Both the position numbers and the translations under genes were made by a program. From NCBI GenBank assembly GCA_951406725.2, contig OX597817.1, positions 140,368,001 to 140,432,000 on the forward strand: DNA of 64,000 bases, given 5' to 3'. The notes beneath the pieces are model-generated. The model had not been told where the DNA came from, made no database searches, and saw only the letters and a program-made list of their open reading frames with translations. Positions 13,557 to 63,430 of the stretch are shown piece after piece. The stretch is from Octopus vulgaris (taxonomy: Eukaryota). How positions within the stretch are numbered: position 1 is the stretch's first letter; every line of letters begins with the position of its first letter.

Positions 13557-13748
13557 GATAGATCGTTAGCTCCTACACGCATTTTTTTCTCTCCTTGTTT
13601 TTTTTCTGAGTATCTTTCTGTCGAAGAGCGTAGGCTCGAAACGTAAAAGACTTGTTCTATCTCTATTCCTGAGCGCCATACTAATACATTTGTTTGTTTG
13701 TACTCCACCTGCCTTCGTCTTTTGTTTATTTTCGTAAACCTTCCCGTT
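13557..13748 (+). mobile_element. PLE-terminus family H1 (HHR-bearing) between (TA)n tracts; HHR-like motif 13613-13650
   Basis: TCTTT-CTGTCGA-A-GAGC-GTAG-GCTC-GAAA-CG-TA-AAAGA; 3' end abuts (AT)n. Confidence 0.75.
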
Positions 13749-14191
13749 ATATATATATATATATATATATATATATATATATATATATATATATATATAT
13801 ATATAAAGGGTAAAGACCTCCTTCGGTCATGAATGATCAAGGCAATGCAACTAGAAAGTTACCTTCCGAGGCACAAGTCCGGGCCAAGTTATTTATGGAA
13901 GGCCATCAGTCGCCCATGTATGACAGCCCCTCTTCTTCATGCCACATATGTTACCCAAAGGAAAAGCAAAGGCTGATACAATTTCATGTTAGCCTCATGA
14001 AGGGATGGTGTCATCTAAGGAAATACTGGTTCAATCCTTAATGTTTTGTGAGGAATAGATTTCTTTAAAATAATAGGTTTGTATATAAACTGCAGATTAT
14101 ATTCATGTAAAGGGAAAAGAAGAAAATGGAGATTTTTAATAAGTTAATAAGTTAATAAGAGTTTATTACCAACAACAAATCGATCATTATC

Positions 14192-14270
14192 CCTTACAGC
14201 TGTTTCAATTATACACATTGAAACTAATTAAATATTAAATTAATATTTCTGAGCATAATCTCTTCAGAGG
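14192..14270 (-). ncRNA. Type-I hammerhead ribozyme motif with canonical core
   Basis: CCT-CTGAAGA-GATTATGC...GTATAATT-GAAA-CAGCTG-TA-AGG: 3-bp stem I, 8-bp stem II including G-U pairs, palindromic stem III ACAGCTGT, GUA triplet. Confidence 0.75.
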
Positions 14271-14872
14271 CAAATAAATATAGCCTTAGGTGTTATGTAT
14301 GTCTGTCTGTAGATTCATTGCAGCAGACTCAATGATACGGTCTATTGTTTGTGCTTATATGCGTCTGGGCGAGGGGTTTGCAGGCTGGTTGTAGGTAGGA
14401 TGGACTTGGTGAATAAAATTAGAGTAATAAATGAATGAATAAACAGAGATTATAGAGTAAATTACAATATAAATAAGGTAAGGGAGTAAAATACATTTGT
14501 AAGCTGTGTATAAAGTTGAGTGAGTTTGTGTGTGTATATATATATATATATATATATACACACAAATTAATTACACACATATATACCCACACGCTTTCAT
14601 ACATTCATCTGTACGTTCATGCATACACACACACACACACACACACACACACACACACACACACACACACAGACTTTCACATTTATTTACATACATTTAC
14701 ACATACGCACAAATCATTACGTACACACATGTCAACATACATACGTATATGCACACTTATGTACATATGTACGTATGCACAGATACATTAATCCATATTC
14801 ATGTTGACATATACATACGCACACGCACATATATGCACACATAAATACATATATAAATAAATATATATAAAA

Positions 14873-15615
14873 TGGTGCTCTTCCTTCCAGTCCGAGCTAA
14901 AAGCGATCAGAAAGGCTCTTCAAGAAGTCCCGACAGAAGAAGGTGTCTCAAGAGTGCGAATTGTCAGTGACAGCCTCTCCGCTTTGCAGAAGATTAAAGC
15001 AGCTCACCCATCACTACCCTCCAAGACAAAAGACGAATGTGAATTCCTCATCCTCCTTTCAAACCTTAGTGACAACGGGTGCCAGATAACCTTCACCTGG
15101 TGCCCTAGCCATTGCGGAATCCCCGGCAACGACGAGAAGGCCAAAGCCGGCACGGAAGGAGACCCTTCAAACATGAAAGAGTCAAGAGGATCTACGGCGA
15201 CCATGGAGATAAAGTGAGCAGAACCGCTGATCCGTCTCTAACCAGGCAGCAGCAGGTAGCACTCAGCACACTTAGAAGTGGTCATCACCCGGACCTCATG
15301 CACTGGCTCTACAAGATCGACCGAGCCATAGACAGAACCTGCAGAAAGTGCGGGGTGGGAGAGGAGACGGCGGAGCATGTCATCTACGACTGTCCACGGA
15401 TCCATCGCCCGCCGCAAATGCCACCACCCCTCAGACACTCTGGCCAGTGAACCTCTCTTTGTCCTCCGGATCTGGGAAAAGTGGACTTCCGCTCCCGACC
15501 TGCCAGACGTCTCCCAACCCACAGATCGGACGCAGTGAAATCACCCTTACCCGTCTTGTTGCTTAACAACAACAACAACAACAACAACAACAACAACAAC
15601 AACAACAACAACAAC
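14873..15615 (+). mobile_element. 5'-truncated I-group LINE: RNase H plus C-terminal CCHC zinc knuckle, (CAA)n tail
   Basis: ELKAIRKAL..RIVSDSLSALQ..ITFTWCPSHCGIPGND (RNase H); LSTLRSGH..CRKCGVGEETAEHVIYDCP; frameshifted; (AAC)n from ~15566. Confidence 0.85.
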
Positions 15616-15677
15616 AGCAGCAGCAGCAGCAGCATCAGTAGCATGCAGCCCATTACATATGAAGGGACTATATTTCT

Positions 15678-61036: not shown

Positions 61037-61258
61037 ATTTCTTTATTACCCACAAGGGGCTAAATATAGAGGGGACAGACAAACGGATTCAGCCGATTAC
61101 ATCGACCCCAGTGCGTAACTGGTACTTAATTTATCGACCCCGAAAGTATGAAAGGCAAAGTCGACCTCGGCAGAATTTGAACTGAGAACGTAACGGCAGA
61201 CGAAATACCGCTACGCATTTCGCCCGGCGTGCTAACGTTTCTTCCAGCTCGTCGCCTT
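61037..61258 (-). mobile_element. SINE family A with 19-bp TSD
   Basis: GGGTCAGGAATACTTATTA at 61018-61036 and 61260-61278. Confidence 0.93.
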
Positions 61259-61825
61259 CGGGTCAGGAATACTTATTACGTGGTTAAAAGTTAGCTGAAG
61301 GGAAAGGTAGATAGAAAAAGAGATGGACAGGGGAGGCAGTTATACCGAGAGAGTGGGAGAAGCATATAGCAACGGTGGTGGTGTGTTGATAGTGAAAAGT
61401 ATTTGTTATTGAACTATTATTTTGATAGCGACCATCGCTAAATGCAAAAGGGCAATTATTTGTCGTCTGCTCGTTTAAAAAATTGATATTTGCTTACAAC
61501 GATTAATTTATCTTAAACTCTGGGTTCACAAGAAACACGGTCACAAGCTGCCCGAAAAAAGATGCGCAGATATAGAGCACGAATCCGAGAGGATGAGTGA
61601 GAAAATATAAACATGTATGTTTGTATTACTGTATGCATACACGAATGCATACAGTATGCAAGACTATCAGGGCGGACGCACGGCCTTTCTTTAGCCTTCT
61701 GAAATTCCCTTTTTGTCCTCATTTTTCCTGTAGTACATCAATTTGCAAAGATATATTTTGAAGTCTTGAAGTTTCACTGCTACAATCTTATATATATATA
61801 TATATATATATATATATATATATAT

Positions 61826-62109
61826 TGATAAAACGGTAAGATAACAAAAGAAAGAAAGAGACCTCAATATTATGTAAATAGAGGAAATTTATCTATACAA
61901 TATGTTACATTACTCGGTAGTCAAGATAAAACTCTGAGTTTCAGATGCCGAAGTGGAAATCCACAACACCATCTCTTCGGTTATCTGGCTATTTTTCATA
62001 ACGTTTTCAAATAGCCAGATAACCGAAGAGATGGTGTTGTGGATTTCCACTTCGGCATCTGAAACTGAGAGTTTTATCTTGACTACCGAGTAATGTAACA
62101 TATTGTATA
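61826..62109. mobile_element. Fold-back element: tail 61826-61893, arms 61894-61994 / 62009-62109, one outward-facing HHR per arm
   Basis: 101-bp inverted repeat with one mismatch, 14-nt spacer, (TA)n both sides. Confidence 0.85.
62017..62079 (+). ncRNA. Type-I HHR with U4C core (mirror copy 61924-61986, minus strand)
   Basis: AGATAA-CCGAAGA-GATG..CATC-T-GAAA-CTGAGAG-TT-TTATCT: 6-bp stem I, GUU triplet, extra U before GAAA. Confidence 0.7.
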
Positions 62110-63292
62110 TATATATAATATATATGGGAAGTGCCGCTATAGTAATGGGCGTCGAATCTTTCTGTCTAAACTACAAAGAACATATATAATACCCCACATA
62201 TATTCATATGTGTGTATGTATATATATATATATATATATATATATATATATCCAACCACATATATATACATACATACATACACACATATAGGTATATAGG
62301 TAGCGAGAGAGTGTGAGACAACTTTGTTCGTGGTCAATCTTAGGTAGAACTCTATCGTAGAATGGCGACAACGAGAGGTGAATTGTGTCTTGTAGAGGCA
62401 TTTACTCAAATGTAACTCGAATCTTATTAACGAACCTAATGAATTATTGAATCGCTATTCTCATTTATTTATCAAAACATTCTTAAAATTTCCACGTGAA
62501 AATCTCACTTTACTTACTTGGGTATTAATAAATAAACTCTGTATCTAAGTTACAGTATTAATGACTCTTCCTCTTTCTTCTAAATTAATTTAATATTGCA
62601 ATATAATAAGCGTTCTTCTAACTAATTTTAAAATTTTAATCCGGTTCCTTAATTATTACATCAAACGTAACTCGTTCTAATCTTTATTTAATCAAATTTA
62701 TTTAATTGAATTCACTTTAGCGGTTGTTAACCTGATATTTCTCTACAAAATGTCACTTCGCACTTAGTTGACTTTTCTCTCTTGCTTCCTCTAGTTCACT
62801 GTGCGCTCTTCTCCGCCTCTGACTGGCCACTAAGCAGACATATTGAATAGCAGTTATTTTTCCTGAGAGTTTTTCTTACAGTAGCCTAAAGTAACATTTG
62901 ATGGCGACTTCATCTCACAGAACTGTGAACTGGACACGAAGATAATAAACAAGACAACGTAATTTGATTTTGTCCGTTATCTACAATGCTCTTCCGCAAA
63001 CTTTTTGGTAGTTTTCAACAAAAAAAAAACCCAAAAAAACCAAACAGGATTACTTTGATTCTCCAGCGGGAACGATCGAGGGATAACTGCTGCATTAATC
63101 AATTAACTGAATAATCAATTGAACTGTTATGCATACAAACCATTCTATGATTTGTATACAGTTACTCAAGCCATTTCAAATATATAAGGGAATAAAGTTA
63201 TATAACAATATAATTCTTCATACTTTGTCTGATTATATGATTATTATACATACATGCATATATATATATATATATATATATATATATATATA

Positions 63293-63430
63293 GTTTCTCT
63301 CCTTGTTTTTTCTGTGTCCCTTTCTGTAGAAGAGCGTAGGCTCGAAACGTAAAAGACTTTTACTATTCCTGAGCGTTATACTAATACATCTGTTTGTCTT
63401 CGTCTTTTGTTTTTTTCGTAAACTCTCCCT
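63293..63430 (+). mobile_element. PLE-terminus family H1; HHR-like motif 63320-63355
   Basis: Same motif as other H1 copies; (TA)n both sides. Confidence 0.78.

What the first reader, a model, noticed from the sequence alone, without database searches (positions are those of the whole stretch)
13557..63430. High-copy terminus family H1 with a non-canonical hammerhead core (CUGUNGA, A6U) and 3' ends fixed on (AT)n
Seen: copies at 13613, 22845(-), 25866(-), 32354 (degenerate), 45427, 57964 and 63320 read CTTT-CTG(T)NGA-N-GAGC-loop-GCTC-GAAA-CG-TH-AAAG. Variation falls mainly at position 7, the extra base, the stem-II loop and the cleavage base (A/U), as expected for a constrained HHR. The relative at 31878 keeps A6, has U4C and swaps the stem-I pair (GTTT/AAAC), a compensatory change. 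Copies are variably 5'-truncated (~140-800 nt) but end at ..GT(A/G)AACTCTCCCT then (AT)n. Inference: a family-wide A6U variant. Its palindromic ACGU stem III would require dimeric cleavage, as known for minimal HHRs.
Basis: partly seen in the sequence, partly recalled or inferred. Interest (0 to 1): 0.75.

Follow-up and report, generated by a model that had tools for sequence, protein, structure and literature searches.

The report
Active retrotransposon with altered hammerhead core
These repeats are the end pieces of a young, intact Penelope-like jumping gene whose hammerhead RNA motif has one normally fixed core letter changed throughout the lineage while the rest is preserved, so it likely cuts itself only slowly or with help; cutting is untested.

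Summary
The copies are real. H1 is the pseudo-LTR of a Neptune-type Penelope-like retrotransposon (PLE). Intact ~4.5-kb elements with an RT + GIY-YIG ORF, >99.5% identical to each other, carry CUGUUGA in both pLTRs. Exact-pattern counts are 14,273 U6 versus 141 A6; roughly 60,000 copies are estimated. Across seven subfamily consensuses, 0 of 29 structural/core positions vary versus 44 of 113 flank positions (P=7e-6); only N7 and H17 change. The motif therefore stayed under selection after A6U. The (AT)n ends fit microsatellite targeting; the element carries its own short AT run. Most copies begin ~90-113 nt upstream of the cut site, with no spike at the cut site, so templates were mostly uncut. 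U6 is predicted to favour an inactive hairpin. Two other PLE lineages in this genome fix U4C and A9C. Best reading: a weakened, dimer- or protein-gated hammerhead; rival: a non-cutting structural element. An earlier scan note reports a fixed A6U in another genome. New variant of a known kind.

The parts
13555..13747 (+). H1 solo pLTR end (subfamily C7/A17), HHR 13614-13649, between (TA)n runs
   Evidence: 95% identical to the 3' end of ORF-bearing copy L178
22758..22926 (-). H1 solo pLTR end (A7/A17), HHR 22880-22845, inside (AT)n
25772..26454 (-). H1 3' UTR + pLTR end, ~680 nt (G7/U17), HHR 25901-25866 with a broken G10.1-C11.1 pair; a second short 3'-end piece follows at about 25721-25745
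   Evidence: its upstream part led to GIY-YIG and RT frames in other copies
31792..32013 (+). Sister-family solo pLTR end, HHR 31878-31912 (A6, U4C, GTTT/AAAC)
32283..32484 (+). Older H1 copy, degenerate HHR 32354-32389 (G8A, G16.2A)
45247..45549 (+). Rearranged H1 copy: piece of the element's 5' UTR (to ~45401) joined to the HHR-bearing end, HHR 45427-45462
46924..46971 (+). H1 extreme 3' end only, no HHR
57573..58089 (+). H1 3' UTR + pLTR end, ~520 nt (A7/A17), HHR 57964-57999
63291..63429 (+). H1 solo pLTR end with a ~16-nt internal deletion, HHR 63320-63355

Best explanation
H1 is the pseudo-LTR of a young, intact Neptune-type Penelope-like retrotransposon, and its minimal hammerhead motif has carried A6U through the whole lineage while every other core and stem position stayed fixed, so it is likely a weakened ribozyme that would cut only slowly, as a dimer or with help from the element's protein. 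Shown: contiguity with an RT + GIY-YIG ORF; two identical U6 pLTRs per intact unit; insertion at (AT)n; subfamily-level change confined to N7 and H17. Inferred: transcription starts near an initiator-like TCA(G/T)TC about 100 nt upstream of the cut site. The endonuclease nicks (AT)n, and RT primes at the element's own short AT run at the pLTR end and copies back to the RNA 5' end, giving the ~200-nt solo copies. Because these copies keep the motif, the template was mostly uncut. Predicted: U6 lets U4-G5-U6(-U7) pair with the AACG arm, locking the monomer in an inactive hairpin and hiding the ACGU palindrome until a partner RNA or the protein opens it.
For: Element identity: upstream extension reaches GIY-YIG and RT frames; intact units L171-L174, L185 are 4478-4528 nt with U6 in both pLTRs and are 99.6-99.8% identical over 1.9 kb of ORF; Pfam RVT_1 E=1.4e-7, GIY-YIG E=0.006, below cut-off; inverted and partial-tandem copies. 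Selection: 0/29 vs 35/95 and 0/29 vs 44/113, P=7e-6. N7 takes all four bases and H17 only A/U across a ladder of subfamilies, the two positions that hammerhead chemistry leaves free. Targeting: 111 of 144 copies are followed by (AT)>=3 vs 5.5% background; own TTATATATT at the pLTR/5' junction. 5' ends: 40 of 94 at -91 to -113, 18 of 94 beyond. Fold: rod -7.6 to -9.8 kcal/mol for four U6 copies vs -7.4 open; natural A6 copy rod -5.8. Literature: the anole PLE hammerhead cleaves only with protein and is not needed for insertion in vitro (PMC11167929, section 3 read); natural A6C variant has low but real activity (PMC3088659 section 8, PMC7151607 passages).
Against: No direct sign of cleavage. 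5' junctions show no spike at the cut site above the downstream background (by-eye counts). Single CUGA mutants were low-activity in a saturation study (PMC9901934, passages). 9a and loop GUAG are as fixed as the core, so conservation is not specific to catalytic positions. Only one compensatory pair. Within single copies the constrained sites also diverge a little less than flanks (2.5% vs 3.9% non-CpG), so detection or alignment bias inflates the contrast somewhat; 77 of 148 copies were picked on flank anchors, which were removed from the flank count. At 12 clusters one constrained site differed (1/29 vs 44/101); I did not identify it. Other 3' UTR blocks (ACTAATACA, CTTCGTCTTTTG) are also invariant. 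In a 230-nt context neither HHR stem is predicted to form. The start-site reading of the 5' pile-up could partly reflect microhomology with (AT)n.
Confidence: 0.58

Rival explanations
1. The motif no longer cuts. It is kept as a structural or protein-binding hairpin (RNP assembly or RNA-RNA pairing through ACGU) that the retrotransposon needs.
For: Three lineages in this genome fix different core changes: A6U, U4C and A9C (43 of 43 matches). Loop II and 9a are invariant in H1. U6 favours a rod. Most copies keep the motif and there is no cut-site spike. HHR mutants did not affect PAc insertion in vitro (PMC11167929).
Against: N7, which would pair in the rod, takes all four bases. H17 is never G in a subfamily consensus although G would pair with C3. 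C3, G8, G12 and U16.1 stay fixed. The sister family varies its loop II freely while keeping the core.
Confidence: 0.27
2. The U6 motif is an efficient ribozyme in vivo, rescued by tertiary contacts (invariant GUAG loop with the bulged stem I), by high salt or by Mn2+.
For: A6C variants regain speed in Mn2+ (PMC7151607). Loop II is invariant and stem I can extend past a variable 2-nt bulge (alignment, by eye).
Against: Copies derived from cut RNA are rare (vs 13,418 motif-spanning matches). PLE min-HHRs are slow even with A6 (PMC4209133).
Confidence: 0.08
3. The hammerhead is a dead relic that looks conserved only because the family is young.
For: A6U itself; individual copies decay, with CpG loss in the core.
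Against: Subfamily flanks differ by up to 0.33 and ORFs of old versus young copies by about 20%, yet 0 of 29 positions changed.
Confidence: 0.03
4. H1 is mainly a non-autonomous retrozyme-like element copied from a small (circular) RNA.
For: The window copy at 45247 and 11 other loci join a 5' UTR piece to the HHR end. L324 and L325 repeat their own junction, with HHR spacing 383 and 367 nt.
Against: Junctions differ between loci, so there is no single unit. Long copies run into the ORF, and intact autonomous units carry the same pLTR.
Confidence: 0.04

Closest known systems
[quoted passage not shown]
   Same: Position in pLTR; U-rich 5' flank; short stem I; extra base 9a; G10.1-C11.1; GAAA-CG-UH palindrome; mostly solo dispersed copies.
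   Different: A6U. Every Fig. S3 row I saw has A6 (their descriptor requires it); the only core variant reported in the text read is U3-A8. Rfam models do not detect the motif.
Neptune-clade EN+ Penelope-like elements (Craig et al. 2021, PMC8557442; passages and supplementary alignments seen)
   Same: RT followed by C-terminal GIY-YIG; CX4CxxC linker; CCHH; DKG motif; pLTR partial tandems; inverted copies; TA-microsatellite bias. By eye the protein closely follows Neptune1_Ap and Neptune1_Nv rows.
   Different: Variant HHR core; very high copy number (~60,000, mostly ~200-nt pLTR ends); ORF runs on into low-complexity sequence.
PAc Poseidon element (Frangieh et al. 2024, PMC11167929; section 3 read)
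   Same: Internal RT start, AT-rich target, uncut RNA as the apparent template.
   Different: PAc keeps a cleaving core and starts RT without homology to the target. H1 has its own AT run at the inferred start site.
Natural A6C hammerhead of phage Bcep176 (PMC3088659 section 8; PMC7151607 passages)
   Same: Natural pyrimidine at position 6.
   Different: Single phage locus, A6C not A6U, monomeric, activity measured (low in Mg2+, higher in Mn2+).
Animal non-LTR retrozymes (bioRxiv 10.64898/2026.07.22.740005, part 1 of 5 read; PMC7229834 search listing only)
   Same: Type I HHR derived from PLE pLTRs; two loci show 367-383-nt head-to-tail units.
   Different: H1 is autonomous and dispersed, not tandem arrays.

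Membership tests
min-HHR of metazoan PLEs | Located in the pLTR of a PLE | tested here: met
min-HHR of metazoan PLEs | CUGANGA core | tested here: not met
   U6 in 144/148 copies; 14,273 vs 141. Filed as a variant, not a canonical member.
min-HHR of metazoan PLEs | GAAA, A15.1-U16.1, H17 not G | tested here: met
min-HHR of metazoan PLEs | Stem I 3-5 bp, stem II with G10.1-C11.1, extra base 9a | tested here: met
   99% of cells paired, one compensatory pair
min-HHR of metazoan PLEs | Palindromic 15.2-16.2 (dimeric stem III) | tested here: met
   ACGU in all consensuses; predicted duplex is weak, -3.5 to -5.5 kcal/mol
min-HHR of metazoan PLEs | Self-cleavage as a dimer | not testable with these tools
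   no raw RNA reads were offered; genomic junctions show no spike
Neptune-clade PLE | Single ORF with RT and C-terminal GIY-YIG | tested here: met
   (GIY-YIG below Pfam cut-off; motif YCISC..YIGQT visible)
Neptune-clade PLE | CX2-5CxxC linker and CCHH motif | tested here: met
   CSRPRCRTC, CSLC..H..H in the L171 translation
Neptune-clade PLE | Partial tandems (pLTRs) and adjacent inverted copies | tested here: met
Neptune-clade PLE | (TA)n insertion bias | tested here: met
   111/144 vs 5.5%; 5' side AT in 39/81
Neptune-clade PLE | Phylogenetic placement against named Neptune/Nematis references | not tested
   only by-eye comparison with supplementary alignments; homologs carry no clade names
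Non-LTR retrozyme | Non-coding and non-autonomous | tested here: not met
   contiguous with an intact ORF
Non-LTR retrozyme | Tandem units each with an HHR | tested here: inconclusive
   2 of 12 junction loci show two-HHR units; most copies are solo

The most novel reading that the evidence does not exclude
Penelope-like elements are selected to keep their hammerhead deliberately crippled. Independent lineages in one genome fix different single core changes (A6U, U4C, A9C) that each could add pairs across the core and lock the monomer, while position 7 is re-tuned repeatedly (at least four changes). The motif would be a protein- or dimer-gated switch that spares the RNA until it has served as template.
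Probability: 0.25. Interest if true: 0.72.

Novelty: new variant of a known kind. Interest (0 to 1): 0.48.

Why it matters
The function of hammerheads in endonuclease-bearing PLEs is stated to be unclear (PMC8557442). Here a recently amplified, intact element carries a natural core change expected to cut activity, yet the rest of the motif is under strong selection. That gives a ready test of whether catalysis or structure is what is selected. It also shows that CUGANGA-based searches and Rfam miss tens of thousands of motifs in one genome.

Tried and rejected
Rfam: whole-window scan showed only microsatellite/miRNA noise in the 150 of 419 rows listed; no hammerhead model at E<=10 on the young motif. 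My idea that U4C at 31878 was a private mutation was wrong. An apparent A6 outgroup subfamily was an artefact of picking those copies on A6: an unbiased pattern gave U 79, C 12, A 8, G 1 of the first 100 of 692 (by eye), and the five A6 copies in the tree do not form a clade but all lie in the oldest subfamily. The origin of U6 is at or near the base of H1 and is not resolved further. The PLE ORF fragment at 18906-19823 is not H1's parent; it is another family. The sister family could not be tied to an ORF within 1.5 kb. Splicing as the cause of 5'UTR-HHR joins: rejected, junctions vary. Sequencing runs: no RNA holder listed on record. The eight runs laid were contigs only and cannot show ends, strand or level; they show presence under four organism labels, and their variant table missed N7, so it says nothing on position 6. 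Cofolding two motifs gave an extended rod dimer, not the active dimer. Lunse, Weinberg and Breaker 2017 (about PLE hammerhead variants) and a structure-versus-mutant review were not held, so A6U may already be in print there. Searches for prior reports: 'hammerhead'+'A6U', 'octopus'+'hammerhead ribozyme' (28), CUGUNGA-type strings (61), terminon core changes (60): nothing relevant in the listings. One supplementary file of PMC4209133 could not be searched; bioRxiv supplements are closed.
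Full report
Setting. The window is G000:C4:140368001-140432000 in a 2.8-Gb assembly of 227 contigs, 35% GC and microsatellite-rich. It looks like an octopus genome (inference from size; an earlier scan note says octopus).

Observation. The seven listed copies and the relative are at the stated places, plus a 3'-end-only piece at 46924. Genome-wide, the exact U6 pattern has 14,273 matches with 0 for the reversed control; the same pattern with A6 has 141. 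Thirty-eight random 10-kb stretches held 9 motif-spanning hits, one probably from the sister family, giving about 60,000-66,000 copies (95% range for 9 hits: 30,000-126,000). Among 148 copies chosen without regard to the motif, position 6 is U 144, C 2, G 2, A 0.

What it is. Searching with the upstream part of the 25866 copy gave longer copies that run into GIY-YIG and RT reading frames. A protein search found dozens of equal-scoring copies with frames up to 1214 aa. Five of those examined (L171-L174, L185) are 4478-4528-nt units with the U6 motif in both pLTRs, 99.6-99.8% identical over 1.9 kb of ORF; L186 has a G8U change in its 5' motif. The ORF hits RVT_1 (E 1.4e-7) and weakly GIY-YIG (E 0.006, below cut-off). 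It has the CX4CxxC linker and CCHH motif and by eye follows Neptune1_Ap and Neptune1_Nv in the supplement of PMC8557442; no tree with named references was built. Adjacent inverted copies and partial tandems occur (L003, L027, L002, L012). H1 is therefore the pLTR of a Neptune-type PLE that amplified very recently with U6.

The (AT)n ends. 111 of 144 copies are followed by at least three AT units against 5.5% at random positions, and 39 of 81 have AT on the 5' side. The element itself reads ...CCCGTTATATATT at the pLTR/5' junction. Priming on nicked (AT)n at this run is inferred. TA bias is described for Naiads and linked to the linker in Neptune (PMC8557442, passages).

Selection on the motif. 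Clustering on flank columns gave seven U6 subfamilies: 0 of 29 core and stem positions vary, against 35 of 95 flank positions (P=2.5e-5). After adding the oldest subfamily and removing HHR-selected copies (178 copies), the result is 0/29 vs 44/113 (P=7e-6); 0/29 at 7, 8 and 10 clusters and 1/29 at 12. A tree of 58 rows with six sister-family copies gives a ladder from the oldest to the youngest subfamily. Along it N7 reads U, C, G, A, C, U, U (at least four changes by hand parsimony) and H17 switches between A and U. These are the two positions hammerhead chemistry leaves free (established knowledge). Caveats: within-copy divergence is also lower at constrained sites (2.5% vs 3.9%); other short blocks are invariant too; covariation is one pair from one event. 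In the oldest subfamily position 6 is U 79, C 12, A 8, G 1 per 100 (by eye), so U6 arose at or near its base. The sister family keeps A6 in all 100 rows listed and has mostly U4C.

Is it cut? 5' ends of 94 copies pile up at -91 to -113 from the cut site (40 copies), with 18 beyond. The edge lies at an initiator-like TCA(G/T)TC (consensus recalled), and Penelope is known to start transcription inside its pLTR (PMC2377424, passages). The modal ~200-nt copy is thus likely a copy of the RNA's first 200 nt. Most of that sample was selected to span the motif, so I tested cut-site junctions separately. Among 39 distinct loci listed, 10 joined (TA)4 directly at -1 to +5 and 11 at -27 to -2. Among 36, about 20 joined at +6 to +29 and 2-3 at +1 to +5 (rough, by eye, first 100 rows of each). 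That is a step down inside the motif, not a spike at the cut site, and such short copies are few beside 13,418 motif-spanning matches. This agrees with PAc, where uncut RNA is the main template and cleavage needs the protein (PMC11167929, section 3).

Mechanism. A6C has low but detectable activity in Mg2+ and better in Mn2+ (PMC3088659 section 8; PMC7151607 passages); CUGA single mutants were low in a saturation study (PMC9901934 passages). I found no A6U measurement. Folding natural copies predicts that U6 lets U4-G5-U6(-U7) pair with AACG: rod -7.6 to -9.8 vs open -7.4 kcal/mol, whereas an A6 copy gives rod -5.8; P(G5:C15.2) is 0.30-0.98 for five U6 copies and 0.11 for A6. For the U4C copy the rod and open forms were equal and the MFE was another pairing, so the lock idea is weak there. 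I put a weakened, gated ribozyme at 0.58 and a non-cutting structural element at 0.27.

Context. A third, very young PLE family in the window (ORF fragment 18906-19823, intact 1312-aa frames elsewhere) has CUGAUGC in 43 of 43 matches from 32 loci. Families with canonical cores also exist. Earlier scan notes report a G3:C8 swap in this genome and fixed A6U, A6C and U3 variants in other genomes (unchecked). Core variants thus seem recurrent in PLE hammerheads, which lowers the surprise of this one but sharpens the general question.

Novelty. Element class, minimal motif and dimer model are known (PMC4209133). A lineage-wide A6U under measurable selection in an intact element was not found in my searches, but the most relevant paper (Lunse et al. 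2017) was not readable. Verdict: new variant of a known kind, interest 0.48.

Noticed in passing
window 18226-19823 (-) and inverted copy ~19930-20441; intact frames in L121, L122: A second, very young PLE family (1312-aa ORF, dozens of copies 100% identical over 305 aa) whose hammerhead reads CUGAUGC-G (A9C) at 18389-18350(-) and 20225-20264(+); 43 of 43 matches.
   Followed up: partly
window 31792-32013; L261-L290: Sister family with 9,376 exact matches, mostly U4C, with U4 subfamilies and variable loop II; no ORF link found within 1.5 kb.
   Followed up: partly
window 45247-45549; L322-L332: 5' UTR piece ending near GTAAAACTG joined to the HHR end at 12 loci with differing junctions; L324 and L325 repeat their own junction (383 and 367 nt between motifs), as a template jump or small circle would give.
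   Followed up: partly
L291-L320 and listing: In the oldest H1 subfamily position 6 is C in about 12% and A in about 8% of copies, above background decay.
   Followed up: partly
L058:-8342, L133, L103, L054, L056: Other hammerhead families: CCAC-CUGANGA...GAAACRAUUGUA-GUGG (inverted pair in L133) and a GGCUG...CAGCC family with U4 and C4 forms.
   Followed up: no
window 46291-46824 (-): Open frame with QQDGAPPH and SPDLTPLDFFLWG, resembling a Tc1/mariner transposase C-terminus (recalled motifs; no Pfam hit).
   Followed up: no
window 5684-5863, 26621-26819, 57271-57468: A ~200-nt repeat with a tRNA-like head (by eye), one copy just upstream of each of the two long H1 copies.
   Followed up: no
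window 15709, 28832, 42676, 43427, 44671, 53686, 55710, 59075, 61037: Another ~200-nt dispersed repeat, 85-92% identical, at nine or more places.
   Followed up: no
window 61887-62116: A ~230-nt near-perfect inverted repeat (94%).
   Followed up: no
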